64,000 nucleotides of DNA, from positions 107,696,001 through 107,760,000 of the forward strand of contig NC_086097.1 of assembly GCF_963921235.1 (NCBI RefSeq), given 5' to 3'. The position numbers and the translations under genes are program-made. This document shows positions 790 through 46,384 of the stretch, piece after piece. Source of the DNA: Mobula hypostoma. Its lineage: Eukaryota. The notes beneath the pieces were generated by a model, which did no database searches, had not been told where the DNA came from, and saw only the letters and a list, made by a program, of their open reading frames with translations. The number at the start of each line of letters is the position of its first letter. The stretch's first letter is position 1.

Positions 790-1205
790 AAATCCTATGA
801 GATTCATCAGACATGATTTTCCTTTCACAGATCCATGCTGACTTTGTCCGATGATTTCACCGCTTTCCAAATGTGCTGTTATCACATCTTTCATAACTGA
901 CTCTAGCATTTTGCCCACCACCGATGTTAGGCTAACTGGTCTATAATTCCCCGGTTTCTCTCTCCCTCCTTTTTTGAAAAGTGGGGTTACATTAGCCACC
1001 CTCCAATCCTCAGGAACTAGTCCAGAATCTAAAGAGTTTTGAAAAATTATCACTAATGCATCCACTATTTCTTGGGCTACTTCCTTAAGCACTCTGGGAT
1101 GCAGACCATCTGGCTCTGGGGATTTATCTCCCTTTAATCCCTTCAATTTACCTAACACCACTTCCCTACTAACATGTATATCCCTCAGTTCCTCCATCTC
1201 ACTGG
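790..1205 (-). mobile_element. CR1 LINE ORF2 fragment
   Basis: Translation contains KSPEPDGLHPRVLKE, WRVANVTPLFKKG, NYRPVSLTSVVGK and QHG..KGKSCL. Confidence 0.92.
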
Positions 1206-1210
1206 ACACT

Positions 1211-1934
1211 GGCCACCCGCCCCTTTGAGCGACTGAGTGTTGACTTTAAGGGCCCCCTTCCCTCCACCGACCGCAATGTGTACTTTCTTAACGTTATTGA
1301 CGAGTACTCGTGGGTCCCCTTCACCATCCCCTGCCCCAACACCACTACCACGTCAGTTATAAAAGCCCTGCGCAATCTCTTCACTCTGTTCGGATACCCA
1401 TGCTATATCCACAGTGACAGAGGGTCCTCGTTTATGAGTGACGAGCTGTGCCAATACCTACTGGCTAGGGGAATTGCAACCAGTAGGACCACGAGCTATA
1501 ATCCCCGGGGGAATGGACAGGTGGAGAAGGAGAATGGCATGGTGTGGAAAGCCCTCAGGTCAAAGGGACTGCCGGTCTCTCGCTGGCAGGAGGTCCTTCC
1601 CGAGGCACTCCACTCCATCCACTCCCTGTTATGCACAGCCACCAACACCACCCCTCATGAGAGGCTCTTTTCATTTCCCAGAAAGTCGACTACTGGGACC
1701 ACCCTACCAACTTGGCTGACGTCCCCGGGGCCAGTGCTGCTCTAGAAACATGTGAGGAGCAATAAATACTCCCCGATGGTCGAGAGGGTTCACTTACTTC
1801 ATGCGAACCCTCAGTATGCCTATGTGGTTTTACCTGATGGGCGAGAGGACAAGGTCTCCATCCACGACCTGGCGCCCGCAGGAGCACCAGGCCCCTACCC
1901 TGAACACTCCGTGGTGACTATTGACCCCATGTAA
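1211..1934 (+). pseudogene. pol: Gypsy integrase fragment (core plus C-terminus)
   Basis: PFERLSVDFKGPLP, VIDEYS, IHSDRGSSF, YNPRGNGQVEKEN and TTPHERLF motifs; in-frame stop near 1743. Confidence 0.9.
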
Positions 1935-2572
1935 GGGCGGTCCTCCCGGCAGATGGGGAGCTGATGGTAAGCGGATTTTAGGTCTATGGTTGAGTACACC
2001 TTGTACTGTGCTATCTGATTGACCATATCCGTGATGCAGGGTAGAGGGTACGCGTCGAGCTGCGTGAACCTATTGATGGTCTGGCTATAGTCCACGACCA
2101 TCCTATTTTTCTCCCTGTTCCGAACAACGACCACCTGCGCCCTCCAAGGACTTGTGCTTGCCTCAATGACCCCCTCCCTGAGCAGCCGCTGCACCTCCGA
2201 CTTAATGAAAGTTCTGTCCCCCGCGCTGTACCTCCTGCTTTTAGTTGCTAAAGGTTTACAGTCGGGGGTCAGGTTGGTGAACAGTGGTGGGGGAGGGATC
2301 CTGAGGGTGGAGAGGCCGCAAGTGGCGTTGGTAGTGCGGCAGTTGGCGTGGTGTTGGGTGAGATGTGTGGGTCGGTGTGTGTGCGTGGTCAGTAGCGGGG
2401 TATGTGATGTATCCCTACAAAACTGGGGACTTACGACAGTGATTGGTGGGAGGGGCCCATCATACTTCATTGTCATGCTTTTCAGGTGGCTCTGGAAGTC
2501 GAGCCCCAATAGCACAAGGGCACACAGTTGAGGCATAACCAGTAATGTTAAGTCACGATATTCTGTGCCCTG
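1930..2572 (-). pseudogene. pol: Gypsy protease end / RT N-terminal fragment
   Basis: LLGLDF, GVIEASTSPW, RMVVDY..INRFTQLDAYPLP and IDLKSAYHQ motifs. Confidence 0.9.
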
Positions 2573-2744
2573 CTCTCCCTCTCCCTCTCTCTCTCTCCTT
2601 CTCCCTCTCACTCTCTCTCCCTCTCTCCTTCTCCCCCTCCCCCTCCCTCTCCCTCTCTCTCTCCCTCTCCCTCTCCCTCTCTCCCCCTCTCCCTCTCCCT
2701 CCCTCTCTCCCTCTCCCTCTCTCTCTCCTTTCCCCTCCCTCTGC

Positions 2745-2817
<73 letters not shown>
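2573..2817 (+). repeat. (TC)/(TCCC)n polypyrimidine tract followed by (CA)n
   Basis: Seen directly; the CA run is at ~2747-2817. Confidence 0.98.
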
Positions 2818-2818
<1 letters not shown>

Positions 2819-2979
2819 AGTTAAAGTCATCCCTGAAAGCATGCTTCTATTTAATGGATATATTGTTGCAAAGACACAACATTGACCTCACACCCATAAC
2901 TTAGCAAAGGAGACTTGCAATCTCTGTAGCATGCAAGTGCTGTTTCTTCTTCCACACCTTTCTCTTGGTTCCCTTCAAA

Positions 2980-5240: not shown

Positions 5241-6262
5241 TGTCATAAGGGCGGTGGCTGGGAACGGACCCAAGTGCAAGACACAGACACTGAAGTACTA
5301 GGGACAGGACTAGGATACAGGGTGAGAGCAAGGACATGGACATGAAAACCGGGTACCCGGAACAGGACTGGACAAGAGAGCTAGGAGCCCAGGCTCTTGC
5401 CTCTGGCTCGGACCCCAGAACTAGGCAAGGACGAGGCTTGGCTGGCAGGCAGGATGAGGCTGGAGTCTTCAGGCTTGAGGCTAGAGACTAGAGGCGTGGC
5501 TTGGCAGGAGGCAGGAGGCTGGAGACTTCAGGCTTGAGGCTAGAGACTAGAGGCGAGGCTTGGCAGGAGGCAGGAGGCTGGAGACTTCAGGCTTGAGGCT
5601 AGAGACTGGAGGCGAGGCTTGGCAGGAGGCTGGAGGCTAGAGACTTGAGGGGAGGCTTGGCAGGAGGCTGGAGGCTAGAGACTTAAGGCGAAGCTTGGCA
5701 GGAGGCTGGAGGCCACTCCTGGGCAGGGCACGGTTCTCCTGGGCAGGGCACGGTTCCCCTGGGCAGGGCGCGGTTCTCCTGGGCAGGGCACGGTACTCCT
5801 GGGCAGGGCGCGGTTCCCGTGGGCAGGGTGCGGTTCTTCTGGGCAGGGCGCAGTACTCCACCCAACGGAGGCAAGGGACAGGAAGGGACAGAACCAACCG
5901 CAGATAACAGCAAGATGGCCTGGCTTACCCGACGGAGGCAAGGGACAGGAAGGGACAGAACCAACTGTAGGTAACGGCAATACGGCCTGACTTACCCAAC
6001 GGAAGCTAGGGACAGGAAGGGATAGAACTAACTGCAGGGTAATGGCAAGACGGCCTGACTTACCCGGCGGAGGCAAGGGCCAGGAGGGGAGCTAGGTACG
6101 GGGTGGCTCCAGGACAAGACAGCAAGACAAAGCAAGGCTTCAGGCAATGCAAGGCAAGACAGAACTTCAGGTGAGGCGAGAGTTACCGACAAGACAGGGC
6201 AGGGCTTTAGGCCAGGAAACAGAAGGCAGGGGAAGGGATACAAGGAGTAAGGACAAGAACAA
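5241..6262 (-). mobile_element. Truncated LTR of the same family as the 10099-12043 element, with expanded tandem arrays
   Basis: Begins TGTCATA, the reverse complement of the LTR 3' end at 12043, and carries the same ~65-bp, 20-bp and CCAGCCT-rich repeats. Confidence 0.88.
5718..5857 (+). repeat. 20-bp minisatellite CCTGGGCAGGGCRCGGTWCY, 7 copies
   Basis: Copies counted directly. Confidence 0.95.
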
Positions 6263-7189
6263 GTACAGAGGAGATTTACCAGGATGCTGCCTGGTTTAGA
6301 AAGTATGCATTATGATCAGAGATTAAGGGAGCTAGGGCTTTACTCTTTGGAGAGAAGGAGGATGAGAGGAGACATGATAGAGGTATACAAGATATTAAGA
6401 GGAATAGATAGAGTGGATAGCCAGTGCCTCTTCCCCAGGGCGCCATTGCCCAATACAAGAGGACATGGCTTTAAGGTAAGGGGTGGGAAGTTCAAGGGGG
6501 ATATTAGAGGAAGGTTTTTTACTCAGAGGGTGGCTGGTGCGTGGAATGCACTGCCTGAGTCAGTGGTGGAAGCAAATACACTCGTGAAGTTTAAGAGACT
6601 ACTAGACAGGTATATGGAGGAATCTAAGGTGGGGGGTTATATAGGAGGCAGGGTTTAAGGGTTGGCACAACATTGTGGGCCAAAGGGCCTGTACTGTGCT
6701 GTACTATTCTATGTTCTATGTTCTATAGTGGTCTAATTCAAAATCTTTCATCAACATTTGACGACCACAATATTGCTACCTATTGTGAGGAGTTTCCAAC
6801 TATGTGAAGGTCATTTGAAGGCACAGTATAAGGCAGGTTTCAGTATAAGCTGGGCATTGTGAAACATCCTGCCGAGGCTGTCACTCAGACTGTTGATGGC
6901 CTTTATGCAACTGTAGTTCATACTGTGCTATGAGGGCAATGTTGTTTTGTATGGGATCCAGGAAGGATAGCTTTGTGAGAACATCACAGTAATTCTCTGT
7001 GGCACATGCAAGGACAGAGTCACAGGCATATTGACTCTGCTGGGTGCATCTGGTGGGAGAAATATAAAATCAACAAGGTTTAATTGACACAGTTGGTAGA
7101 CTCTGATTCATATACAACATGTTTCTAGTTTTTCTAGTTGCTCCTATTTTTGTTGCTGGTTTGAGTTATTTTACACTGGGGTGGCCTGC

Positions 7190-9959: not shown

Positions 9960-12380
9960 TATAGTGACCAGAATCCACTATATCTATATATCTGTATATT
10001 TGTAAATTAAACAAAATAAACAAAAGTGCATAAAGAGAGCAAAAATAGTGAGTTAGTGTACATCGGTTCATTGTCCATTCAGAAATCTGATGGCACAATG
10101 TCATGGTCCAGTCTGTGAAGTCTGCATTCTGGTTCATGGTCCGGTCCGTTGACCCTTGCTCCAGGTTTTCCTGTCTATCCTGCTTCTGTTCCTGTTGAGC
10201 ACTAATTGAGGCAGCTGATGCTCGTTGGAGCTGGCTGCATAAATACCTCCAGAGACCAGCGTGTGGCTGCTGGATTGTTCTTGTCCTTACTCTTTGTATC
10301 CCTTCCCCTGCCTTCTGTTTCCTCGCCTGAAGCCCTGCCTTGTCTTGCCGGTAACTCTCGCCTCGCCTCGCCTGTAGTCTTGGAGCCATCCTGTACCTAG
10401 CTCCCTTCCTGTCCTTGCCTCCGCGGGGTATGTCAGGTCATCTTGCCATTACCTGCGGTTGGTTCTGTCCCTTCCTGTCCCTTGCCTCCATCGGGTAAGC
10501 CAGGCCATCTTGCCGTTACCCTATGGTTGGTTCTGTCCCTTCCTGCCCCTTGCCTCTGTCGGGTAAGCCAGGCTGTATTGCCGTTACCCTGCAGTTGGTT
10601 CTGTCCCTTCCTGTCCCTTGCCTCCGTCAGGTGAAAGTCCGCGCCCTGCGTAGGAGGAGCTTCAAGACCCCAGCCCCCAGCCTCACCTCAGGTCTCAGCC
10701 TTGCCTCAAGACTCCAGCCTCGCCCTGCCTGCCAGCCAAGTCACGTCCTTGCCTAGTTCTGGGGTCCGAGCCAGAGGCAAGACCCAGGTATTGGGTCCTT
10801 GTCCAGTCTCTGGCTCGGAGTCCAAGCCCAGGCTCCTAGCTCTCTTGTCCAGTCCTGTTCCGGGTTCCCGGTTTTCGTGTCCATGTCCTAGTCCTCACCC
10901 TGTATCCTAGTTCTGTCCCTAGTACTTAATTGTCTGTGTCTTGCACTTGGGATCCGTCCCCAGCACCCATCCTATGAAAGAATGATACAGCCAACCATGG
11001 ACCCAGCGACACAGACACTGTCATTTTCCTCTTGCCACCTGGGGTTCCCGTCTGTTAAATACCCTCCCACCCGCTCAGGTCGTCCATAGTCTGGATAGCC
11101 TGTTTGTTCGCCAGGAGGCTCCCGGGGGGGTGGGGGGGTACTGACATGGTCCGGTCCGTGAAGTCCACATTCTAGTTCACAGTACGGTCCGTCGACCTTT
11201 GCTCCAGGTTTTCCTGTCTACCCTGTTTTCTTTTCCTGTTGAGCACTAATTAAGGCAGCTGATTCTTGTTGGGGCTGGCTGCATAAATACCTCCAGAGAC
11301 CAGGGCGTGGCTGCTGGATTGCTCTTGTCCTTACTCCTTGTATCCTATCCTCTGCCTTCTGTTTCCTTGCCTGAAACCCTGCCTTGTCTTGCCGGTAACT
11401 CTCGCCTCGCCTCGCCTGTAGTCTTGGAACCACCCTGTACCTAGCTCCCTTCCTGTCCCTTGCCTCCGCCGGGTAACAGGCTGTCTTGCCGTTACCCTGC
11501 ATTTGGTTCTGTCCCTTCCTGTCCCTTGCCTCCGTCGGGTAAGCCAGGCCGTATTGCTGTTACCCTGCGGTTGGTTCTGTCCCTTGCCTCCGTCTGGTGG
11601 AGATCCATGCCTTGCCCAGGAGTATCACGCCCTGCCCAGGAAGAGCTTCAGGACCAGCCTCCAGCCTTGCCTCAAGTCTCCAGCCTCCAGCCTCACCTCA
11701 GGTCTCCAGCCTCCAGCCTCACCTCAGGTCTCCAGTCTCCAGCCTCCAGCCTCCAGCCTTGCCTCAGGTCTCAGACTTGCCTCAAAACTCCAGCCTCGTC
11801 CTGCCTGCCAGCCAAGTCACGTCCTTGCCTAGTTCTGGGGTCCGAGCCAGAGGCAAGACCCAGGTACTGGATCCTTGTCCAGTCTCTGGCTTGGAGTCCA
11901 AGCCCGGGCTCCTAGCTCTCTTGTCCAGTCCTGTTCCGGGTTCCCGGTTTTCGGGTCCATGTCCTTGCTCTCACCCTGTATCCTAGTCCGGTCCCTGTCT
12001 GTGTCTTACACTTGGGTCCATCCCCAGTGCCCATCCTATGACACACAAGGGAAGAAGCTGTTCCTAAAATGTTCAGTGCGTGTCTTCAGGCTCCCATACC
12101 TCCTCCTTTATGGTAGTAATGAGAAGAGGGCATGTCCTGGGTGATGGGAATCCTTAGTGATCCTTAATATTGGATGCTGCTTTTTTGAGGCATCATCTTT
12201 TGAAGATGTCCTCGATGCTGGAGAGGCTGTTGCCCTTGATGGAGTGCAAGGTGGGTCAATGTATGTACCTTTTTGGAAGATTGTGTTTGTGCATGAGGGG
12301 GTCTCTTGAACTTCTGCAGATGCACTATATAAAGTATCCTGACAGGAAGCATGACAACATGTTGTGACAACTGCTCTGCT
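9960..12380 (-). mobile_element. Rex1/Babar-type LINE 3' part, split by the LTR element at 10099-12043
   Basis: ITKDSHHPGHALFSLLP motif; the LINE sequence resumes across the CACAA duplication. Confidence 0.75.
10099..12043 (+). mobile_element. Non-autonomous two-LTR retrotransposon (LTR1 10099-10979, internal 10980-11141, LTR2 11142-12043)
   Basis: Two homologous ~0.9 kb repeats with TGTCAT..ATGACA-type termini, a perfect 5-bp TSD CACAA (10094-10098 / 12044-12048), a G-rich PPT before LTR2 and an MDPA-type start at 10997. Confidence 0.93.
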
Positions 12381-12419
12381 CTGGGCTGCTGGAAGCTGCA
12401 GAGAGGAGTAACCACTCAC

Positions 12420-12980
12420 CGGTGAATCACAGGCACATCAGATCCTTCCAAACAGTAACTGGATACAACGTCTAGGTCCAGGAATTACAGGGATATGGGT
12501 ATGAGATAAGGCCAGAAGTTGGGGAACCTATTTGGGACTTGAATTGGAGATTGCTGATGTTGGCTGTTCACAGCCTGGTGTACAAATCAAATAGGGTGCT
12601 TTGTCCCACATTGTGTCAAGTTGGAATATAGTTATGCAGGTAAGAGGAGAGAATTCAATCACAGTTATGCTTTGTGTTTTGTACATATTGGAAAGGATTT
12701 GGGGTGTCATGAGCTAAGTAGTTCATCACATGAAAACCAGCTTCTAACCTGGTGTACTGGCAACTGCATTTATATGGCAATTCCAAAAGAGTTTTCCCTT
12801 TCAGATTTACCAGAGCTCCTTGAAGCCACACTTTGCCAAAGGCTGCCTTCATGTCAAGAGCAGTCACTAAATTCATCTTTATGGCTCATATTTGCACCAA
12901 GCTTGTGATGTGGTCTGGACTGAAGTGATCCTAGCAAAGCCCAAACTAGGTATCAGTGAGTATATCATTAACACCTTCAA
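12420..12980 (-). mobile_element. Old CR1/L2-group LINE RT fragment
   Basis: VTALDMKAAFGKVWLQGAL; a related plus-strand fragment lies at ~13790-14020. Confidence 0.6.
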
Positions 12981-14029
12981 AGACACTTTCTTCAAATTGG
13001 CTGGAGACTGGTGTCTGCAATGGTGAAGATTTCAAGATGAACCTGAGACCATCTGGTTAGTAATTCTGGCTAAGCATGGCTGTTAGCGCTTCACCTTATC
13101 TTTAGGACTTATGTGCTACAATTGTTGACCAGATATGACAGGATTGTCCTCTCAAATGAATGTAAACATAATTAACTATGAAAGGTATCTTTACTTCCTT
13201 CCTCAGTCCAAATGACTTGCTTCCAGTGCCTGAGATGCAGCTTCAGCTAGATCATTATTAGTATATATATATACACACACACTTACTTTTAATATGATAT
13301 ATACCTACTGTAATTCACAGTTTCTTTTCTATAATTATGTACTGCATTGTTCTGCTGTTGCAAAGACAACAAATTTCATAACATATGCCAGTGATTCTGA
13401 TTCTGTTGACTTGAACTCCTGTGGTCAAGGAAACAAAAATTGTATCTCAAATGACTACTAACAAAAACATGGTTCCACAAACTTTGTGAATTCTTCATCA
13501 TAAAATCACTTTCTTTGGGATATTGGTCAAATATCAAAGAAAATTGATAATTTTGTGATTTTGAAATAAGCCGAAATGAGTTGTTATAATAATAAAGGCA
13601 ATTACATCAATCTCATCAAGAGTATGATTATGCATTTTTATAAAATATGCCTTCAGTGGCAAACCTTAGAACTTACAGGGGTAACTGTGGATAGGTTTGC
13701 ACATAAAATAGAAACAGATTTCCCAAGTGACCACTATGGATAGTGCATTTGAGATTAAAGAAATTTAAAGTGAATGAGTTTAGGTAGCACAAAAGACGAT
13801 AGTCAGTCGGCCCATCCCCTGGACATCACTGCAGGAGTTCCTTAGGCGGTGTCCAAGGTCCACCCATCTTCAGCTCTGCTACGTCAATGACCTTCCTTCT
13901 GTCATGTCAGAAGTAGGCTTATCTGCTGCATGATTGCACAATATTCAATTTAATTTGCCCAAGTGTTGCATGCAGAATGACCTCAACAATATTCAGGCAC
14001 GGGCTGATTACTTGCAGGCAAGTGGTTGT

Positions 14030-15890
14030 TGTCTACATGTACTTTAGCAAGGGCTTTGACAAAAAATCATATGGAAGGTTGGTCTGGAAGGTTGGTCCAG
14101 AAGGTTAAGTCACTTGGCATTCAGGATGAAGTAGCCAACTGGATTTAACATTGGCTTCATGAGAGTAGTGGCAGGGTGATAATAGATGTTTGCTTCCCTG
14201 ACTGGAGGCCTGTGACTAGTGGTGTGCTGTATGGATCGGTGCTTGGTCCGATATTGTTTATTATCTATATTAATGAGTTACATGATGATGGAGTAAGCTG
14301 GATCACCAAATCTGAAAATGACACCAAGATGGGGGCATAGTGGAAAGCAAGGAAGACCATCAAAGCTTGTAGTATAATCTCGACCAGGTGGGAAAATGGC
14401 AGATGGAATTTAATGCAGACGCACATTGATTCAGGGACAGTTTCTTCCCTCTGCCATCTGAATTCTGAAGGAACGCTGAACCCATGAACACTACATCACT
14501 ACTTTTTTATTTCCATTTTTGCACTACTTATTTAATTTAACTATTATTTATATATATATATATATTTACTGTGATTCTCATTTTTTCTATTATTATGTAT
14601 TGCAATGTACAACAAATTTCATGACATGTCTGATAAGAGTAAGGTGTTGCAGCTTTGCATGAAAAATAAGAGGACGACTTGCACAGTAAATGGTAGGGTA
14701 CTGATTCGGGAATACGTAATCTGTAATTCCTTGAAAGTGGCATCACAGGTAGATAGAGTCATAAAGAGAGCTTTCAACATTGGCCTTCATGAATCAGGGA
14801 ATTGAATACAAGAGTTGTTATGTTGAAGTTCTATAAGACGTTGGTGAGGATGTATTTGGAGTATTGTGTGCAGTTCTGATCACCTACAGTACTCATATAA
14901 AACTAGGGTGCCCAAGACTTTTGCAGAGTACTGTAGTAATTTTATGTATTGCACTGTACTGCTACCACAAAAATAAAAATCAAATTTCATGACAGATGTG
15001 AGTGATGATAAACCTGATTCTGATATAGGTCTCTATTGTGGACTGAGAGTGGGAAGTGAGCAGGGAGAGGGAATCATGGTAGGGAAAAGGGAAATGGACA
15101 GGAGAGGGAGTGGGAAGCACCAGATAGACATTCTGTAATGATTAATAAACCAATTATTTGGAAACAAAAGACCTTGCCTAGTGTCTCAGGGCTGGGTGTG
15201 TCTGCACCTGCACCATCCCCTGCCCCTGGCACTCCACCTGTCCCAGCGCTCCACGCTTGCCATTCCCAGCATCCTTTGCTCTCTCCAGATTTACAAACTT
15301 GACTTGCTCTCTGCTCTGTGTTGACAAATACAGTACTGTACAAAAGTCTGATATATATGCCTAAGACTTTTGTACAGAGCTGTACCTACAGGGGTGATAT
15401 CAATAAGCTTGAAAGAGTGCAAAGAAAACCTAAGAGGATGTTGCCTCGACATGAGGGCCTGAGTCATAGGGAAAGATTGAGTAGGTTAGAACTTTATTCC
15501 CAGGAGTGTAGAGAATGAAGGGAAATCTTACAGAGGAATTCAAAATTATGAGGGGATTAGATAGAGTATATTAATGCAGGCTTTTTTCCCTCAGATTGGA
15601 TGAAGCTCGAACTAGAGCTCACAGATGTAAGGTGAAATATTTAAGGGTAATCTGAGGGGTTACCCTCAGAGGGTGGTGAGAATGTAGAATGAGCTGCCAG
15701 CGGAAGTGGGAGGTGTGGGTTCAACCATAACATTTAAGAAAAGTTTGGTTAGGTTCATGGATGAAAGGGGTATGGAGGGCTATGGTCAAGATGCAGGTAG
15801 ATGGGACCAGACAGACCAGGCCATCATGGTCTAGATGGGCCAAAGTGCCTGTTTCTATGCTGTACTGTTCTATGAGTCTATGACTCTAAA
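14030..15890 (+). mobile_element. Decayed CR1 LINE with nested insertions
   Basis: WRPVTSGV, SLKVASQVDRVIKRAF and LERVQRK motifs and a CR1 tail at ~15850-15890; insertions at ~14420-14625 and 14887-15382. Confidence 0.85.
14887..15382. mobile_element. Composite Tc1/mariner-type element: two ~50-bp mini-MITEs flanking ~400 bp of cargo
   Basis: Units 14887-14933 and 15331-15382 have CAGTACTGT(G/A)CAAAAGTC-type inverted ends, each bounded by TA; the host CR1 sequence rejoins across a TA duplication. Confidence 0.7.
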
Positions 15891-16511
15891 TAATAAATGG
15901 TAATTTTGAAGTTGCAAGGTAAAATTTTAATAATGTGTGCAGAAAACAATATATAACTTAATTTTAATAGAAAGAAACCAATTAAACAGGAATATCATAA
16001 TAGAGAGACCAGAAAAGAGACCATTCAACTATTAGCAGATATTCTCATGGCTGAAGAAAAACAGTTTAAGAAGTGATTAAAAATAGTGAGAAGAACCTTA
16101 CGGGAACTTTCCATCAATTTTATTTCCATTATGATCAGAGCCTTTTGACCTGAAATATTAACTCTATTTTTCTTTCCACAGATGCTGTCTGACCTGTTGA
16201 ATATTCACAACATTTTATTTTCATTTTAAGTTTGCAGCTTTTGGAGATTTTTCATTTTTAAACTCAAGTGTAGGTTTGATTGAGCAGTGCAGCACTCTAC
16301 CATTGCTGATGACTGGATAAAGTTTAGATCATGCTAACTATTCCTGCTACTATGCAATGTGAACTTATGCTTGGAAAACATTGGAACCAGTTTGTTCTAT
16401 TGCCTGCATTCACGGAAATACAATTCCTTTGATAGCAATAGCGTTACAGATAACCAGCCATTGCTCTGAGCAGGAAATTCTTACTTGACCTGAAAATTGC
16501 GTGGCACTTTA

Positions 16512-17228
16512 TACTGCATCCAGTGCTCCTGGTGCGGCCTTCTATATATCGGCAAGACATGATGCAGGCTGGGAGATCGTTTCGCAGAACACCTACGCTC
16601 TGTCTGCCAGAGAAAGCAAGATCTCCCAGTAGCCACACATTTTAATTCCACGTCCCATTCCCATTCTGATATGTCTATCCATGGCCTCCTCTACTGTCAA
16701 GATGAAGCCACACTCAGGTTGGAGGAGCAACACCTTATATGCTGTCTGGGTAACCTCCAACCTGATGGCATGAATATTGACTTCTCTAACTTCCGTTAAT
16801 GCCCGTCCTTCCCTTCACACCCCATCCCTTATTTATTTATTTTATATATTTTTTATTTTTCCCCCTTTTTTTCTCTCTCTTTTTTCTCCCTCTGTCCCTC
16901 TCACTATAACTCCTTGCCTGCTCTCCACCTTCCAGGCTCCCCTCCCCCCTTCTCTTTCTCCCCAGGCTTCCCGTCCCATGATCCTTTCCCTTCTCCAGCT
17001 CTTAGATCCACCTCTCCCCTCCTGTCTTCTCCTGTCATTTCGGATCTCCCCTCCCCCTCCCACTTTCAAATCTCTTACTATCTCTTCTTTCAGTTAATCC
17101 TGACGAAGGGTCTCGGCCCAAAACGTCGACTGTACCTCTTCCTATAGATGCTGCCTGACCTGCTGTGTTCACCAGCAGTTTTTGTGTGTGTTGCTTGAAT
17201 TTCCAGCATCTGCAGATTTCCTTGTGTC
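16512..17228 (+). mobile_element. Penelope-like element 3' part (GIY-YIG endonuclease plus terminal region with hammerhead motif)
   Basis: YCIQCSWCGLLYIGKT..RLGDRFAEHL..VATHFN..EEQHLI..QPDGMN; 10-bp TSD TGGCACTTTA (16502-16511 / 17229-17238). Confidence 0.92.
17091..17133 (+). ncRNA. Minimal type I hammerhead ribozyme motif (GAAA box mutated to AAAA)
   Basis: CTGACGA, GGG/CCC stem II, AAAA, then CGTC, with partial stem I pairing to GACTG; matches the minimal hammerheads known from Penelope elements. Confidence 0.65.
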
Positions 17229-19198
17229 TGGCACTTTAAATGTTTTTTTGTAATATGTATAGTATGAATATTTAGAATATTAATTGAAAAAAATCACATA
17301 CTTTTGATTTTATTTACTAATTGAAGAATTAATGAAATATAGTAGAACAAAGGAAATCTTACACATTTCAAAAACTTTTTCCCATCTGTCTTTATTATAA
17401 ATCCATTGTCCAGATTAATTTTGCCTCCAGATGAAAGATGTGTCTTAATCCTCATTAGATCATCCAAATGTTCCAATTCTAGTGTGTTCCTGGATTTACA
17501 TTTGATTGAGTTCATGAAACTGAATCCAAGTTCACAATAAGCACTAGAAATGTTCCAGCGATATTAACAAGAATTGACAGTTCCTCAAGTTCTTCATTTC
17601 TAAGCACATAGTTCAACGTATCAGTAAACATTTTATTTGAATCAGTCTTAACTTTTGCAGAAATGACAATTTTGAAATCATAGTATTGTTGCGATAATTT
17701 TGAAGCAATGCTTTCATCGTAGTTTATAATAGTAGATGAGTTTTTTTTGACAGTCGTACAAGATTCTCTTTTCCAAATTCAAAATTGGTTGCGTTTGCAA
17801 AAGCAACAGGGTCAAAAGCTTGCCATTCTCTTAACTCATCATCAGAGAAGCTATTATCCAAGTGATTACACTCCTGTTGAATGAATTGAATAATAGGCAC
17901 AGTATCAACTTCGGAACTTATAGATACAAGCAGATCTTTTACTTTGTCACTCTAATAAATGGTATCACCAAAATACTGTGGGCATAACTTGTTAATTTTT
18001 GCTTTTGCATACTGTAGAACTTCAATTGTATTCAAACAACTTTTCTGAAGGAATTTACAAAGAGATGCCAGATCATAAAACATCGTTAAGGACAGTTAAT
18101 GCTGCTCGATGTTGTGGATTGGTGAAAATCTTCAGGCAGAAGTTGCTGATTGGAGCGTTACATTCACGAACTTGCCCTTTGCATTACTGGACTAAAACTT
18201 CATAATTCCTCAGTAAAGCAGTAATGGGAAAATGTCTTGACAGCCATCTTACTTCATTTAGTGGTCTAAATGACAGAATATCACATTCTATGACATTAGC
18301 TAAATGAAACTTTCCTGGTTTAGCCAATGACCTGTTCATAGCTGTGTTTCTACATCCTGCATAACTTATATTTTTCCATGCGTCGTCTAGTCCTAGGTCT
18401 TCTCTGTGCAACACAATGTTACTCCAACAGATGTTTTATTTCTCGGCAAAGAATTGCCGTCACACCATTATTCTTTCCAAGTATAACATTTGCCCTGTCT
18501 GACGTAAACATCACCATCTTTTAAACATCAAGATTGTTGTTGATACATATTTTTTTGCTTCAACTATAGTGATACTGCCACATGCAGTTAGTTCCAAAAT
18601 ACCCACAAAGACAGTCTTATAGGAAGTTTCATTTTCCAGTCAATGCGTAAAATACAAAATTAATATTTTCTGTAAAAAAAATACCTGTACTTTCATGAGG
18701 AATTAGCGCATGGAAAGCAGGTTTCCACAATTCTTCCATTATCTCTTTCTGAAGCACACAGCTGATGCATTCAACAAATTTGAATGCAATGTTCTTGCTG
18801 CACCAACTCTCTGGTATATTTACATATTTGTCCAGGTGTGCATGAATTTCTTGCACAGAATGCATAGAAGCAGTAATTTTAACTCCTAACATAACGTTAT
18901 CAATTACCACTTTGACCATTATCAGAGTTAGACTTCTTTCAGCATTTTGTTTCACTCTTGCTTCACGTTCTTTTGGAGTTTAAGTTAACAAGCGCAAAAT
19001 TCCACAGTTCTTCTGGTTGTGTAATTTGGTAACTGAATATATATGAATTCCTCTGGTTAAGATGTCGTTTTAAGAATTCTGACTTCTATTCTTCCCATTT
19101 TTTCCACTACTGAACTCACCCCCAAATTTTGCTTCCTCAAAAATGGTGCATACAACATCGCCAGCATCCAGATATATAAAAATATTGCCAATTTTTAT

Positions 19199-19333
19199 CC
19201 TGAAGAAGGGTCTCAGCCCAAAACATTGACTGTTTACTCTTTTCCATAGATGCTGCCTGGCTTACCATGTTTCTCCAGCATTTTGTGTGCATTACTTCGA
19301 TTTCTTGCATCTGCAGATTTTCCTTGTCTGTGA
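19199..19333 (+). mobile_element. 135-bp Penelope-derived short element (hammerhead motif plus tail)
   Basis: Homologous to 17099-17228; perfect 12-bp TSD GCCAATTTTTAT (19187-19198 / 19334-19345). Confidence 0.88.
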
Positions 19334-19479
19334 GCCAATTTTTATTCTTTGTTTTTGATACAAAGTCGGTAGCTCAGTATCTATGAGTTGCAAAGCCATT
19401 CTACTTTAAATTATGTACAATCTTTGTTCTCCAAAGCATTTAACTCTTTTTCTGCTTTACTTTTTGAAATCCTTGGGAT

Positions 19480-21262
19480 CATCATCATCATCATCAGGTG
19501 CCGTGCCCAGTTTGAGCTTTGACTGCCATGGCCCACACACTCCTGTTTCGGGTCAAGTGGATCAATTCATTGGTATTCATTTCCAATTCTCTGGCTGCTG
19601 TCTCCATCATCATTTGTCTTTGTCTTCCTCTTGCTTTCTTCCCTTCAATCTTTTCCATAATTACCGTGCATTCTAACTCTTCTTTCCTAATCACATGTCC
19701 AATGAAGTTACGTTGCCTTTTCATGATCTCATACATTATTTCTCTTTTTGTGCTTGCTCTGTTCATGACATCCTTATTAGATATTCGTTTTGTCCATAAT
19801 ATTCTTTGCATCCTCCTCAAAAACCACATCCCTGCTGCTTCAATTCATTCCCTCACATTACTAGATGTTGTCCAACATTCTGAGCCATATAACATAACTG
19901 GATAAACGTAACATTTCAGTACTCTGAGGTGGGTTGTCATGCCTAGTTTAGTATTGGTCAGTATACTCTTCATGGTGTCTTTTGCCATTCCTATTCTTCT
20001 TTTGATGTCCATGTCGCAGCTGCCAGCTGATGTCACCCAGCTTCCTAAGTAGCAAAAGTTTTGTAATTGTTTTATGTATTCTCCGTTTATTCTCAGCCTG
20101 CAGATAGGATTCTCCTTCTTTCTGGATATCACCATACATTCTGTCTTTTTGCAATTGATAGATAGACCCATTTTTACACTTTCTTCAACAACTGTATCAA
20201 TTAAGTTTTGTAATTCTTCCTCCGTACTTGCAATTAACACAGTGTCATCCGCATATCTGAAATTATTGATGTTTTCGCCGCCAACTTTGATTCCCAAGAT
20301 GTCTCTTATTTTTTGTAATATTGTTTCACTGTATACATTAAATAAATCAGGGGAGAAAACACACCTTTGTCTAACACCTCTCTTGATTTTCGTAAACTGA
20401 CTCACTTCTCCATCTATTCTTACAGCGGCAGTTTGTTTCCAGTACAGATTTCTGATTAGGCGGAGGTCTTTCGAATCAAAATCTAGAGTTTTCTGTAATA
20501 TTTCGAATACCTTATTGTGCTTCACTTTATCAAATGCTTTTGTGTAGTCGATAAAACAAACAAATCTTTTTGCACTTGAAAAGCTCATTCTGATAGTATC
20601 CTTAACATCAATGTTGCGTTTCTAGTACCTATGTCTTTCACAAAACAACATTGTTCTTTACCTAGTTCAGCTTGTATCTTACTTTTAGCTCTTGTCATCA
20701 AAATTCTTTGAAGTATCTTGGTGATATGACTCATTAAACTTATGGTCCTATGTAATTCACATTCTATTGCTCCAAGTTTCTTTGAAAGAGTGATAAATAC
20801 TGATTTTTTTTCATCTCTTCTGGTATTATTCCAGTCTCATAAATGTCATTGATTAAATCAGTAAGTAAGTTTATTCAATTCCATAATCTTCAAGGGTGAT
20901 AATTTGTTCTGTTACTAATTCATCAGGACCTGCAGCCTTTCCTTTCTTCATCTTATTTATTGCATTATGAACTTCAGATTTTAAAATACTGTACTTGGAC
21001 CTTCAATGTTTTTATTAATTTCTGGTTTTTCGCCTCGATCGTCTTCAAACAATTCCTGAATATACTCATTTCATCTGTACATTATCTCATCTTTTTCCAT
21101 GATACATCCACCTGAAGAACAGAGGAGCTTTTTACCAGTGATATTCTTGATTTGTTGATGTAACCTTTTTGGATCAGTAATAGGGATTCTTTCTATTTGC
21201 TCACATTCCTGGTTTAACCATTCTTCTTTGGCTTTTTGACATAAGCTTTTAACTTTTTAAGT
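19480..21262 (-). mobile_element. RTE-clade LINE, 5'-truncated
   Basis: FIDYTKAFDKV, GVRQRC..SPDLFN, RYADDTVL, YGSECWT and EGKKARGRQR; (ATG)n tail; 11-bp TSD ATCCTTGGGAT (19469-19479 / 21263-21273). Confidence 0.95.
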
Positions 21263-29719: not shown

Positions 29720-31660
29720 GGTAAGATGCTTTATGGGGGTAAAAATCACAGCCGTGTGTTGGTGAAAACAAATGTAGACCACTTACAGTCAGGATTAGAG
29801 AGATGGATAACAGGAAACAAAGCATAGCAGACCAATCAGTGATATACTTTGATTCTGCCTTCACAATGTGGTGCACAAATAATCTTCCATAAATATGGAG
29901 GAACTTAAAGGGAAAAAAGAAAGAAATCAGCAATTGTGGAAAATAATTTTCTGGGACATATACCAGGAAGGAAAAGGTTGAACATCTTTCAGTGATGGGA
30001 AAAATTAATGGAAGGCAGCACATGACATTCATGAGTTATATCAAGGGATGGACAGGCAAAAGTTTTGAAGAGCTTATTAGAACTCAGATTAAAGACAGAT
30101 GGATGACCATGATCACCCACGTCATATGACATGACACATAAAGATGATACTGATGAATATTAGAGTAATTGGATGAATCATAGTAAATCCCCAGGGCCAG
30201 TTAGTCTGCAAGGAAGTGACCTAGAAATGGAGAATGTATTGGCTGTCATTTTCCATCATACCTCAGACTCTTTTCCAACAGAGATCACGTTGCGAGTGTA
30301 ATCACACTATCTAAAAAGGAGCATCGAGAGAAAATGAGGAATTATAGAGCAGTGAAACTGATGTTGGTAATGAAGGAAAGAGTTGAGTCCATTATACAAC
30401 ACGTAATAAGTTGACAGGTCTAGACAAAGTCAAAGTGGATTTATTAAAGGGAAATAATGCGACAAATCACTTGGGACTTTTGAGGATATTACTAGCAATA
30501 TAGATATGAAGAACAGAGAATGTAAGGACTTGGAAATGCAAAACATTTTCCATAAAGGACTTATGAAACAGGTCAGTGTGTAAAATTAAAGATATGGAAT
30601 TGGGAATGAAATCTGTAGAGAACCAGCTGTCCAATAGGAGATGAAGTATAGGAATAAATTGCAGATGCAATTTAATGTGGATAAATGTGAGGTTATCCAC
30701 TTTGGTGGCAAAAACAAGAAAACAGATCATTATCTGAATGGTGTCCGATTAGGAAAAGGGGAGGTGCAACGAGACCTGGGTGTCATTATACACCAGTCAT
30801 TGAAAGTGGGCATGCAGGTACAGCAGGCAGTGAAAAAGGCGAATGGTATGCTGGCATTTATAGCAAGAGGATTGAGTACAGGAGCAGGGAGGTACTACTG
30901 CAGTTGTACAAGGTCTTGGTGAGACCACACCTGGAGTATTGTGTGCAGTTTTGGTCCCCTAATCTGAGGAAAGACATCCTTGCCATAGAGGGAGTACAAA
31001 GAAGGTTCACCAGCTTGATTCCTGGGATGGCAGGACTTTCATATGAAGAAAGACTGGATGAACTGGGCTTGTACTCGTTGGAATTTAGAAGTTTGAGGGG
31101 GGATCTTATTGAAACATATAAAATCCTAAAGGGATTGGACAGGCTAGATGCAGGAAGATTGTTCCCAATGTTGGGGAAGTCCAGAACGAGGGGTCACAGT
31201 TTGAGGATAAAGGGGAAGCCTTTTAGGACCGAGATTAGGAAAAAACTTCTTGACACAGAGAGTGGTGAATCTGTGGAATTCTCTGCCACAGGAAACAGTT
31301 GAGGCCAGTTCATTAGCTATATTTAAGAGGGAGTTAGATATGATTAGTGGAGTACCACAGGGGTCAGTGATGGGAACCCAGTACTATATATTAATGAATT
31401 AGATAAGGTAACAAATCCAGATTTGCAGAAGACACAGCATTAAGTGAGAGTGTGAACTCTGAGGAGAATGCAAAGCAGCCTCAGTAAGGTTTAAATAGGT
31501 TGAGGGAAGAGGACAAATGCATTACAGAAGCAATATCATGTGGATAAATGTGAACTACTTTGATGGCAGTAACAGGAAGGCAGACTATAACCTGAATGAT
31601 GATAGATTAGGAAAGACCTGGTGACCTTGTGCACCATTTGCTAAAAGTACATGTGTACTT
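29720..31660 (+). mobile_element. Old CR1 LINE with a younger CR1 segment at ~30660-31340
   Basis: MQFNVDKCEVIHFG and [15 protein letters not shown]; the younger segment closely matches 61497-62054. Confidence 0.88.
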
Positions 31661-38565: not shown

Positions 38566-41500
38566 CATTTGTGGTAATATTCAGTATGAAGTGAGTTTGA
38601 ATTTTAGTGGGTCTTTGCATCATATGAAGTGATTTTGCTGTTGGAATTTTTCGTCAGTATTGAGAGAAACAATAGCAGAATAGATGAAGGAACTGTTTTA
38701 CACCTTCAAAATAAACATTAATATTCAAATAAACATCAATATTTTTGTTTAATTTGTTGTCTAGATGTAAGCAGAGTTGATAAGGCTGCACGGACTAATT
38801 GTTTTTAAGTTACTTGGGAGCACATATTGTGTCAACCACTAAAATTCATTAGCTTTACGTAACTATGTTTCTCTAGATGGCACCAATAAGTGGCGAATCT
38901 TTGCGTGCAGCTCCAATGGGAATCAAATATTCCCGTTTAGGACTACTACAACTAAAATCCACTGTCCCGGCCATTGGTACTTAAGTAAGTAGCATCGTTT
39001 TAAGACATTTATCGATACTCAAAATTGATGGATCCCAGTCTGCAGACTCAGGTCCCGAGTGCAGATCCCCCTTAAGAAAATGGAGGCAGGAAAGGCACGC
39101 TGGGCTACAGGTACAATTGAAACATAGAGGTCTTAGACCTCAACTCCCAACTATGCTGCTGGTGAATGTAAGTAGAAAACTGAAGACCTCAGAGCAAGAT
39201 TGCAGAAATAGAGGTGCATCAGGGTATGCTGTGTAGTTTGCTTCATGGAAACATTGCTCACCGCCACTATCTCAGACCCAGCACTCCAGCACGTTGCTTC
39301 ACAAAGTCTGGACAACTGAGTATTTTAAATGTAAAGGAGGTGGAGTATGCTTTATGATTAACACATCATGGTGAACAGATGTGGCACTTGTGGCTTAATC
39401 CTGCTCATGTGACTTGGAACATCTAGTGGTCAAATGTTGTACATTTTATCTGCTGAGGGAGTCTTCTGCCATCATTCTGGTCGCGGGGTACATTCCATCT
39501 CAGACCAGTGTCAGGCAGCCACTGGAGAAGCTAAGCTTCATAATCAACAGGCATGAAACAGCGCACTCTGTTTCCTACCCCATCATTGAAATCCTCCACA
39601 ACCAGGCCAACTTGAAGAGGTCTCTGAAAAACTACCACCAACCTATCACCTGTGGAACCAGAAGAACCAACACTGTTATATAACCATATAACAATTACAG
39701 CACGGAAACAGGCCATCTCGGCCCTTCTAGTCCATGCCAAACTTTTACTCTCACCTAGTCCCACCGAACTGCACTCAGCCCATAACCCTCCATTCCTTTC
39801 CTGTCCATATATCTATCCAATTTAACTTTAAATGACAACATCGAACCTACCTCAACCACTTCTGCTGTCAAAAATGCTGACCATGCCAACCCGCACCCAC
39901 ACTTTGGAAAGTCCAATCACCTGGCTGTACTTTTACTCCTGGCATTCAGGCAGAGACTAAAGACCGCAACACCAGTGGTGAGGACCAAGAATGCATCATC
40001 AAGGGTAGAAGAGGGGCACTTACAGTACTGATTTGAACCGGTGGACTGGACAATATTCAGGCATACATCTTCGAATCTGAATGTCACAGACTTCATGAAG
40101 GTCTGTGTGGCTGAGTGTATGCTTGCAGGAACATACCAGGCATCCCCAATCAAATGCCATGGATGAACCAGAAGATTTGTAGTCTGCTGAGGGATAGATC
40201 TGTGGCATTCAACACTGTTGATCCAGAACTACACATGAAGTCCAGATCCAAGTTTATTTTTCTGATTGAAGTTAGAGATGGAATCGGATGCACATCAGCT
40301 CTGGCAGTGTTTGCAGGCTATTAGTTCCTTAATAACAAAACCTAATGTCAAGAAGATCAGGGTGAGCTGCCTCAATGACCATCACCCAGTTACTCACATC
40401 TACTGTGATGAAGTGCTTTGAGAGGTTGGTCATGGCCAGATCAACGCCTGCCTGAGCAGAGACCTGGACCTGCTGCAATTTGCCTGTTGCCGCAATAAGC
40501 AATTAGTAGATGCAAACTCATTGGCTCTCCACTCAGTCTTGTATTATCTGACAATAACAACACTTACATTAGGCTTTTTTTATTGATTAGAGCTCAGCAT
40601 TCAAAACAACAATAACCCCTGTTCTAATTAACAAGCTCCAAAACCTAGGCCTCTGTATCTCTCCCTGCAATGAGATCCTTGGCTTCCTCATCGGGAGAAA
40701 AAGTCTACACTGTTACGTAAATGGCAACAATGAATATCAATCGAGACAGGTTATATAAAAACAACCAAATATTTATTAAACACATATAAACGATAAGGGA
40801 AAAAACCAAAAGAAAACTTTAACTGGAAGTTAACAGATATGCAGCTGTTCACCGACTCGTCACTTGGCTCTGGTTCTTAAAGCGTTAAAGGCGAAAACAG
40901 TTCTTAAAGCAATACAGTCAGATATAGTTCTTAAAGCAATAACTTCGAAAGTCCAACAGTTTTACACATTCAATTGGGGGAGACTTCTCTGGAGAAGGAT
41001 TTCTTCACAGACGCACCTTTACTGCTGGTTCTGTCCACAGGATTCACGATGCCGAAAATAAACAGTTTACATCAACTGACCTTAAAATCCTTCAGAGAGA
41101 GAGAGAGCACCTTTTTGCATGAACTCCTTGCTCTTTCTGGCAAGAGTTATCTCGATGCAGGTACTCCTCCAACGAAGACTCAATAAGGTCGATTCTTTAT
41201 TAAACTGCCAAACGATGCCGACTTCTCTCGATCGTTCGATAAATTCTTCACTCTCCTTTCAACTGTTGGAATTGAGTAAATTGGCACATCCAGCCACAAA
41301 TTTCCAGTCCAAATAATATGAAATCTTTAAACAGAACGCACAACTGTTTTAAAAATGAAACTGCGTCACAAAAACAAACACGCAACAGAAAGGGAGATAC
41401 AGCACATTCTACCTGGAAATCTACAAACTTAAAAACCCTACTGCATCACCTGAGTCGACCCTTATAGAGTCACGGGGCACATGTCATCACGTGACCTCAC

Positions 41501-41781
41501 ATCGGCGGGAAAATCATATCAGGTGACCTCCAAAAGACCATTACATCATTGTCACAGAAAAACGGATCTCCTTGAGCATGTAACACCTCCCTCCAAAAAA
41601 ATTTTGTTCTCTGAAGAACAAAATTTTAACAATTTATACAAAAAAAATAGAAAGGTATAAAATTTACAAAATACACAATATATACAATCTTATCTTTCAG
41701 CCCTTTACAAACTAATGTACAGTAGGAATGTTACAAATGTTAAACTATCACTCCAAAAAAAAACAAATTTTCATTGTACAT

Positions 41782-42981
41782 TTAACATCTAGACAAACAA
41801 TCAGCGATCACATTGTCTTCACCCTTAATATGAGTGATCAAAATATTGTATTCCTGTAACATTAAACTCCAATTTAATAATCTTCTATTTTTGTTTTTCA
41901 TCTTGCTTAAAAACACTAATGGATTGTGATCGGTATAAACTGTGAGTGGTTTATGCGTAGAACCAATATACACTTCAAAATGTTGCAAAGCTAAAACAAG
42001 AGATAACAATTCTTTTTCCATTGTTAAATAATTTCTTTGACAGGCATTACATTTCTTAGAAAAATAAGCGACCGGACGATCAACTTCATCACCATCATCT
42101 CTTTGAAGCAACACTGCTCCTGCAGCTTCATCACTAGCATCTACAGCTAACAAAAATAGTTTTTCAAAGTCAGGAGATTTAAGTACAGGTTGACTACATA
42201 ATATAGCTTTCAATTTATCAAATGCCTCCTGACAAGACTCTGTCCAAACAAACTTCTAATTTTTCTTCAAGAGATTAGTTAATGGAAGAGCAATATCCTA
42301 CCATACCCAAGAATCTTCTGAGAGTTTTCTACCAGTGGGAGTGGGTACTTCTAAAATTGCCTGAACTTTTGCTTGAACAGGTGCTAAATTTCCCTGACCC
42401 ACAACATAACCAAGGTAAGTCGCTGTGACATGCCCAAATTCACTTTTAGCTAAGTTAATAGTTAAGTTAGCTTTTGAAAGTCTCTCAAATAATTTCTCCA
42501 CCGCCGCATTATGTGCTTTCCACGTATGATTTCCTGTAACCCGATCATCAATATAGGCATCTGTATCTTTTAATCCCTGAATCACACTATTAATCATCCT
42601 CAGAAAAGTACTTGGTGCATTCTTCATCCCAAATGGAAGAACATTATATTCATATAACCCAGATGGGGTTACAAATGCTGAAATCTCTCTACCCGTATCT
42701 GTCAATGGAACACACCAATAACCTTTTAACAAATCAATTTTTGTAAGGAATTTGGCCTGTCCAACTTTATCCACACAATCATCTACTCTAGGGATTGGAT
42801 ATGCATCAGTTTTTGTCACAGCATTCACCTTTCTGTAATCTGTACAAAACCTAATACTATTGTCTGGTTTAGGCACCATAACACACGGTGAACTCCAATT
42901 CAAATTAGAATGTCTAATAATATCATTCTCTAACATGTACTTAATTTCCTGTTCAGCAAGTTCACATTTTTCCCTGTTCAT
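41782..42981 (-). pseudogene. pol: RT and RNase H (frameshifted)
   Basis: RFCTDYRKVN, IDLLKGYW, PFGMKNAP, YIDD; VDASD, EKELL and TDHNPL. Confidence 0.95.
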
Positions 42982-43103
42982 TCGATATGGGTGTTGTTTT
43001 ATGGGTTTTGCATCTCCAACATCTACATCATGTGTAGCTACAGTGGTTCTTCTAGGGACGTCTGGAAATAAATCTCTATATTTAAAAACTGTTTAAAACT
43101 GTT

Positions 43104-46286: not shown

Positions 46287-46366
46287 TCAAACCAAAAAAA
46301 ATTGCGTATTTCCCTTTTCCAAATCAAAATGGCAATTACCAGCACTTAAACTCAAAATGGGAACAT

Positions 46367-46384
46367 ATCCTGGATGAGCCCCCA
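46367..46384 (-). promoter_or_regulatory. Primer-binding site, tRNA-Pro type
   Basis: TGGGGGCTCATCCAGGAT versus canonical TGGGGGCTCGTCCGGGAT, 7 bp from the 5' LTR. Confidence 0.9.

What the first reader, a model, noticed from the sequence alone, without database searches (positions are those of the whole stretch)
10099..12043. Two-LTR mini-retrotransposon with a 162-bp interior and an apparent tRNA-independent self-priming site
Seen: a perfect CACAA TSD and ~0.9-kb LTRs. The interior holds only a PBS-position sequence, an MDPA gag-like start and a G-rich PPT. The PBS position (10980-10991, GAAUGAUACAGC) lacks the TGG of tRNA primers. It can pair at 11 of 12 positions (two G-U) with GCUGGAUUGUUC (10269-10280), which lies ~25 nt after the TATA-like CATAAATA, at the expected transcript start. 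Established: Tf1/sushi-group Gypsy elements self-prime this way. Inference: this is a TRIM-like parasite of a sushi/chromovirus-type element with unusually long LTRs.
Basis: partly seen in the sequence, partly recalled or inferred. Interest (0 to 1): 0.7.

Follow-up and report, generated by a model that had tools for sequence, protein, structure and literature searches.

The report
Gene-less self-priming retrotransposon family
This is an old copy of a multi-copy, protein-less jumping element whose tiny interior keeps little more than the RNA signals for copying, including a primer site that pairs with the element's own front end instead of a tRNA, a trick already known from its full-length fish and yeast relatives.

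Summary
In detail: CACAA target-site duplication, LTRs of 881 and 902 bp (89% identical, so an old insertion), 162-bp interior, and a primer site pairing 11/12 with 10269-10280. Both refuting tests fail. Contigs of three organisms cover the whole interior, most listed spanning pieces differing 8-17% from this copy, so the short interior is a family trait; most copies pair at this copy's one mismatch, and the site is no tRNA-CCA complement. Twelve of 16 testable fish-type chromoviral Gypsy elements show the same layout with different, self-matching primer sites. The 'MDPA' start is RNA structure: it pairs with U5. Best reading: a non-autonomous Tf1/sushi-type element, mobilised in trans and self-primed. 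Not shown: transcript start, primer cleavage, autonomous partner, other copies' TSDs, origin of about 85 interior bases. At 1,945 bp it is not a TRIM by the <1-kb definition. Self-priming is published for this group, and this scan already noted self-priming mini-elements in fungi; a vertebrate gene-less case was not found in my literature searches. New variant of a known kind; modest interest.

The parts
10094..10098 (+). 5' target-site duplication CACAA
10099..10979 (+). 5' LTR, 881 bp; short U3 (~170 nt) and long R-U5 (~710 nt) if the start is at the primer; no AATAAA/ATTAAA
10238..10245 (+). TATA-like CATAAATA, 32 nt before the 11-nt primer, the same spacing (30-32) as in 7 of 12 fish elements
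10269..10280 (+). Predicted self-primer (5' end of the RNA), preceded by TG as in 11 of 12 fish elements
   Evidence: start site inferred, not mapped
10402..10632 (+). 68-bp tandem array (3.4 copies) that lengthens R-U5
10928..10958 (+). U5 arm that pairs with the leader (second duplex of the 'pretzel'); 10 bp perfect here, 13 bp in the solo LTR
10980..10991 (+). Primer-binding site, complementary to 10269-10280, not to a tRNA CCA end
10997..11020 (+). gag-start relic (MDPA..), read here as the RNA arm pairing with U5; the frame stops after 30 codons, no Pfam match
11021..11105 (+). Interior middle of unshown origin; 11060-11076 can pair with the PPT in this copy
11106..11141 (+). pol-end-like stretch plus G-rich polypurine tract, like the end of the interior of fish element L016
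   Evidence: local score 30, above all 60 shuffles, at the homologous place
11142..12043 (+). 3' LTR, 902 bp, TG..CA; TATA-like 11282-11289, primer copy 11313-11324, arrays 11446-11585 and 11654-11746
12044..12048 (+). 3' target-site duplication CACAA
5241..6262 (-). Third copy of the same LTR, 5'-truncated, no interior, lying inside a LINE fragment

Best explanation
A decayed copy of a multi-copy non-autonomous LTR retrotransposon derived from a Tf1/sushi-type (chromoviral) Gypsy element. Steps: (1) the 5' LTR is transcribed from about 10270, ~30 nt after the TATA-like box (inferred); (2) the RNA is packaged by Gag-Pol of an autonomous relative (inferred; partner not found); (3) the first ~11 nt pair with the PBS, helped by a second duplex between U5 and the old gag start (pairing shown in sequence and conserved in relatives; formation not shown); (4) RNase H cuts off the 11-mer, which primes minus-strand DNA (established for Tf1, inferred here); (5) the G-rich PPT primes the plus strand and integrase makes a 5-bp TSD (PPT and TSD shown). 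The interior has shrunk to roughly these cis signals; the LTR grew through tandem arrays in R-U5.
For: Perfect 5-bp TSD at both LTR ends; all 29 bins covered in three DNA runs of organisms A, B, C; 32-68 contigs per run carry a shared other letter at each of five mid-interior sites; 10 of the 32 listed pieces span most of the interior, 9 of them with 10-47 other letters (8-17%), one (X5 record 18) running from the PBS across the interior 120 nt into the 3' LTR. At this copy's mismatch (10987) and one wobble (10983) a Watson-Crick-pairing letter holds 3887 of 4096 and 3496 of 3901 of X1 depth, and LTR2's extra mismatch (11322) is likewise private (271436 of 272631). Fish-type elements: 12 of 16 with enough upstream DNA have a complement of their own PBS (cognate mean 9.8 vs 7.1 non-cognate; best-anywhere non-cognate 8.4, >=10 in 6 of 156 vs 6 of 13 cognate), with two-sided changes at 7 of 11 positions, TG before the primer in 12 of 13 (background 9.5%) and TATA-like boxes at -30 to -32 in 7 of 12. 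U5-leader duplex: -28.5 to -39.2 kcal/mol for the three LTR copies, 0 of 500 shuffles as good; at most 4 of 200 shuffles as good in 18 of 21 fish elements. One comparator (L057) encodes PR-RT-RNase H-IN-SH3-chromodomain. Mechanism in print: PMC7175516, PMC4600332, PMC6317226, 10.1101/2022.12.06.519325 (passages).
Against: No start site, cleavage product or cDNA was observed. Folding 10268-11030 does not give the primer-PBS helix (pair probability 0), though this is also so for 8 of 12 fish elements. The third pretzel duplex (U5 end) was not supported: 13 of 25 shuffles as good. Four of 16 testable fish elements (L052, L056, L059, L081) had no clear site, and the 12 sites were chosen by pairing, so the paired-cell count (131 of 143) is partly circular. 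No AATAAA/ATTAAA in either LTR. Partner not found. TSDs of other copies not seen; contig depth is no copy number. Pol origin of the interior middle not shown (71 of 1000 shuffles as good).
Confidence: 0.8

Rival explanations
1. Same family and ancestry, but the complementary site is an inherited relic: the mini-element is primed by another RNA (the co-packaged partner's 5' end or an internal tRNA fragment), the 710-nt loop being too long for priming in cis.
For: Primer-to-PBS distance 710 nt versus 67-438 in 12 fish elements; the helix is not in the predicted fold. No vertebrate tRNA set was available to exclude an internal tRNA match.
Against: The family keeps both sides of the pairing at 95-99% of depth at the tested sites; each fish family matches its own LTR with two-sided changes; TATA spacing is kept.
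Confidence: 0.11
2. One ancient internal deletion was multiplied at the DNA level (segmental duplication, or as cargo inside other repeats), so the short form never retrotransposed itself.
For: TSDs of other copies could not be seen with contigs; no genome is held.
Against: This copy has a TSD flush with both LTR ends; spanning contigs differ by 8-17% in three organisms; the kept sequence is precisely the priming signals; still shorter interiors occur as single contigs (table 5).
Confidence: 0.07
3. A full-length element inserted here and lost its interior afterwards, at this locus only.
Against: Diverged contigs in three organisms run colinearly through the short interior.
Confidence: 0.02

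Closest known systems
Tf1/sushi group of self-priming chromoviral Ty3/gypsy elements (Tf1, Tf2, Tj1, Tosmo1-3, Tcry1, sushi-ichi; GyDB V-clade)
   Same: PBS directly after the 5' LTR complementary to an 11-12-nt site at the predicted RNA start; a PBS-adjacent duplex with the LTR; G-rich PPT; TG..CA ends. Layout matched directly against fish-type elements fetched here.
   Different: No gag or pol; interior 162 bp instead of ~4.2 kb (L016); primer-PBS loop 710 nt versus 67-438; no AATAAA in the LTR; longer perfect U5-leader run (10-13 bp versus 6-9).
TRIMs / long-TRIMs / non-autonomous LTR retrotransposons (plants, ants, cestodes, bivalves; Helenus incl. fish)
   Same: Two LTRs, short non-coding interior with PBS and PPT, TSD, multi-copy, solo LTRs, presumed trans-mobilisation.
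   Different: 1,945 bp with ~0.9-kb LTRs, outside the <1 kb and 100-250 bp definitions (PMC6934838, PMC10886601) and the 1.5-kb extension; in the undefined 1.5-4 kb range of PMC13570524. Described TRIMs use a tRNA PBS or have none identified; vertebrate Helenus uses tRNA primers.
Pol-less vertebrate LTR elements 1a11, xretpos(L), lambda-olt 2-1 of Xenopus
   Same: Multi-copy vertebrate LTR elements without pol (PMC4585706 passages).
   Different: 1a11 and xretpos(L) keep an ORF; their priming was not addressed in the passages read; no sequence comparison was made.

Membership tests
Tf1/sushi group | PBS complementary to the RNA 5' end, not tRNA | tested here: met
   11/12 pairs here, private mismatch absent in most copies; the RNA start itself is inferred
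Tf1/sushi group | Self-primer lies at the transcription start | tested here: inconclusive
   TATA spacing fits; only contigs were available, which cannot show a start
Tf1/sushi group | Three-duplex 'pretzel' | tested here: inconclusive
   Duplex downstream of the PBS with U5 supported; duplex upstream of the PBS not above shuffles
Tf1/sushi group | RNase H cleavage releases an 11-nt primer | not testable with these tools
   needs bench work
Tf1/sushi group | RT-IN phylogeny and chromodomain integrase | not testable with these tools
   the element encodes none; comparators with the same leader do; last ~35 nt resemble their pol end; interior middle not significant
TRIM | Two terminal repeats, TSD, non-coding interior with PBS position and PPT | tested here: met
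TRIM | Multi-copy with conserved short interior | tested here: met
   three organisms; distinct TSDs of other copies not seen
TRIM | Total length under 1 kb (1.5 kb extended), repeats 100-250 bp | tested here: not met
   1,945 bp; LTRs 881 and 902 bp
TRIM | PBS complementary to a tRNA 3' end | tested here: not met
   site begins GAA directly after the LTR, in this copy and with no listed variant at those three places (104 variant rows were not shown)
TRIM | Autonomous partner sharing LTR/PBS | tested here: inconclusive
   none in the window; peptide searches found none; no genome held
Retrozyme / Cassandra / Helenus | Hammerhead, 5S or tRNA-like sequence in the LTR | tested here: not met
   Rfam: 4 sub-threshold chance hits only; no tRNA gene in the window

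The most novel reading that the evidence does not exclude
An abundant, long-lived cartilaginous-fish family in which evolution has pared the interior to the minimal cis RNA set of vertebrate self-priming (PBS, an extended U5-leader duplex, a PPT-masking hairpin, PPT) and which self-primes in cis across a 710-nt repeat-filled loop without a canonical poly(A) signal: a first described self-priming, gene-less LTR parasite of vertebrates and a natural deletion map with hundreds of copies and PBS-variant subfamilies for a covariation test.
Probability: 0.35. Interest if true: 0.55.

Novelty: new variant of a known kind. Interest (0 to 1): 0.35.

Why it matters
In the passages read, self-priming is demonstrated for Tf1 and only implicated for vertebrate elements. 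A gene-less family that kept the primer, PBS and U5-leader duplex while losing everything else is natural evidence that these are the required signals, and it explains the conserved MDPA start of fish Gypsy Gag as RNA structure. It also adds a vertebrate case to the size continuum of non-autonomous LTR elements that annotation pipelines miss. It does not reveal a new mechanism.

Tried and rejected
No whole genome is held, so copy flanks, TSDs and partner could not be searched. Run search: 24 rows, no RNA holder on record; 4 were laid. The guessed-RNA run X16 covers the LTR parts but has no depth at 11045-11094: not used as evidence. Viral-contig motif scan: 4 hits, none LTR-like. Metagenome scan: 86 loci, 65 dropped by eye as non-Gypsy matches, 21 kept; 5 of these had too little upstream DNA. 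Interior peptide (stops read as X): one hit that is a summed-repeat artefact, none in the word search, no Pfam match for its first 30 aa. Profiles of 88 of 120 natural chromodomain-integrase ends versus the interior: 71 and 678 of 1000 shuffles as good, so 'interior middle = pol tail' is not claimed. PPT-masking hairpin: z -3.5 in this copy, but 2 of 3 varied paired sites lose the pair with the letters of other copies; left open. Rfam: nothing near threshold; ribozyme priming rejected. The Gypsy element at ~40711-47266 has an unrelated LTR and no chromovirus layout: not the partner. Sequence look-ups in earlier findings: nothing. Literature searches for a vertebrate or self-priming TRIM of this kind listed none; Repbase/Dfam and Butler et al. 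2001 could not be seen and may already hold this family; no supplements were read.

Full report
OBSERVATION. The element runs 10099-12043 between two CACAA copies (10094-10098, 12044-12048). LTR1 is 881 bp, LTR2 902 bp, the interior 162 bp. The LTRs match at 755 of 848 aligned bases, 58 of 93 substitutions are transitions, K2P 0.12, and their tandem arrays differ (68-bp unit 3.4 versus 2.1 copies): an old, decayed insertion. A third, 5'-truncated LTR without interior lies at 5241-6262 on the minus strand. The PBS position pairs with 10269-10280 at 11 of 12 (9 Watson-Crick), the best site in LTR1 by pair count; 20 of 500 shuffled LTRs hold a site as good somewhere.

IS THE SHORT INTERIOR A FAMILY? 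No genome is held. Of 24 listed runs I laid 4 on 10720-11440 at 80% likeness. All 29 bins are covered in the three DNA runs (organisms A, B, C). At five mid-interior sites (11040, 11050, 11075, 11077, 11107) 32-68 contigs per run share a letter other than this copy's. Of 32 listed pieces (25,763 more not shown), 10 span most of the interior; 9 differ from this copy by 10-47 letters (8-17%), so they are other copies, and X5 record 18 runs from the PBS across the whole interior into the 3' LTR. Single contigs show still shorter interiors. Summed depth over mid-interior is 5,900-6,800 in X1 against 15-60 for the single listed contigs, which hints at hundreds of copies, but the tool states that depth is no copy number. 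Depth over the leader is 2-3 times higher (12,400-21,200), which suggests that other interiors share the leader. Flanks and TSDs of other copies cannot be seen in these data.

IS THE PAIRING REAL? Within the family, this copy's single mismatch (10987) and one wobble (10983) are private: a Watson-Crick-pairing letter holds 3887 of 4096 and 3496 of 3901 of X1 depth, with similar shares in X5 and X9; LTR2's extra mismatch (11322) is private too (104 variant rows not shown). For a test across families I scanned metagenome contigs with a leader motif: 86 loci, 65 dropped by eye, 21 fish-type Gypsy elements kept; one (L057) encodes protease, RT, RNase H, integrase, Tf2-like SH3 and chromodomain. Five had too little upstream DNA; of 16 left, 12 have an 11-nt complement of their own PBS and 4 have no clear site. 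Cognate score 9.8 versus 7.1 non-cognate, or 8.4 when the foreign PBS may pick any site. Seven of 11 positions show two-sided changes; the site is preceded by TG in 12 of 13 (window included; background 9.5%) and by a TATA-like box at -30 to -32 in 7 of 12, as in the window. The sites were picked by pairing, so the pair counts are partly circular; the TG and TATA features are independent of that choice; some comparators are related (L053/L057).

WHY MDPA IS KEPT. The bases after the ATG pair with U5 about 30-50 nt before the PBS: -28.5, -30.9 and -39.2 kcal/mol against LTR1, LTR2 and the solo LTR, 0 of 500 shuffles as good, and this helix appears in the folds. In 18 of 21 fish elements at most 4 of 200 shuffles do as well, with matched changes in L008/L057 (the leader was partly fixed by the search motif). 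This fits one flanking duplex of the 'pretzel' described for Tf1/sushi RNAs (10.1101/2022.12.06.519325, passages). The other flanking duplex was not supported (13 of 25 shuffles), and equilibrium folding does not form the primer-PBS helix in the window or in 8 of 12 comparators. The last ~35 interior bases resemble the pol end and PPT of L016. The middle 85 bases remain unexplained; they can mask the PPT in a hairpin in this copy (z -3.5), which other copies' letters only partly keep. Neither LTR has AATAAA or ATTAAA, while 12 of 21 fish elements have one 54-86 nt before the PBS.

MECHANISM. Shown: LTRs, TSD, PPT, complementarity, multi-copy short interior, likeness of the cis layout to chromoviral fish elements. 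Established elsewhere: in Tf1 the first 11 bases pair with the PBS and RNase H cuts between bases 11 and 12 (PMC7175516, passage); the mechanism is implicated from fungi to vertebrates (PMC4600332, PMC6317226, passages). Inferred: start at about 10270, packaging by an autonomous relative, cleavage and self-priming across a 710-nt loop (67-438 nt in the comparators), integration by the partner's integrase. Confidence 0.8; rivals are priming by another RNA (0.11), DNA-level duplication (0.07), single-locus deletion (0.02).

COMPARISON. It works like a Tf1/sushi element and like a TRIM. It cannot be placed in the Tf1/sushi group by RT-IN phylogeny because it has no genes; it fails TRIM size and tRNA-PBS criteria (PMC6934838, PMC10886601, passages) and falls in the 1.5-4 kb gap of PMC13570524 (passages). 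Vertebrate non-autonomous LTR elements are known: fish Helenus, caecilian TRIM-annotated contigs (PMC8498967, passages), pol-less Xenopus elements (PMC4585706, passages). LTR terminal motifs of the Sushi clade are given in PMC3601003 (passages). Butler et al. 2001 and Lin and Levin 1997 were seen only as citations. Searches listed no self-priming gene-less LTR family of a vertebrate; Repbase and Dfam were not available. This scan has already noted self-priming mini-elements in fungi and other genomes and self-priming Gypsy elements and gene-capturing sushi-type families in this genome, all unchecked.

VERDICT. Interest 0.35.

Noticed in passing
window 40711-47266 (-): Near full-length Gypsy element with ~875-bp LTRs (91-92% alike) and integrase placed before RT and RNase H (Gmr1-like order, label recalled); its PBS looks like a tRNA type (recalled); several frame breaks; no matching TSD seen by eye.
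   Followed up: partly
window 1173-2887: Integrase-like frame on + (1173-1745) and RT-like frame on - (1895-2887), tail to tail, interrupted by a GA/CA microsatellite; a matching GA microsatellite sits inside a LINE RT frame at ~610-790.
   Followed up: no
window 5241-6262 (-): The solo LTR carries different arrays (67-, 20-, 38/59-bp units) from LTR1 and LTR2: the R-U5 region of this family turns over tandem repeats quickly.
   Followed up: partly
run X9, loose ends at 10988 and 11020: Organism C has a subfamily with a variant PBS and one with a diverged sequence after the leader; a ready covariation test.
   Followed up: no
window 10099-10979 and 11142-12043: No AATAAA or ATTAAA in either LTR; polyadenylation site unknown.
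   Followed up: partly
window 11060-11140: C-rich stretch pairs with the PPT in a 16-bp stem in this copy (z -3.5); only partly kept in other copies.
   Followed up: partly
L002/L003/L026/L041, near locus position 8001: An environmental contig held by both collections has, by the same scan, a 10-of-11 complement 920 nt upstream of the motif and a frame open for at least 300 codons; not examined, may be chance.
   Followed up: no
window, e.g. 30691-31342, 47426-48839, 61500-61975: Many CR1-type and RTE-type LINE fragments (labels recalled) and few long host-like frames; the window is repeat-dominated.
   Followed up: no
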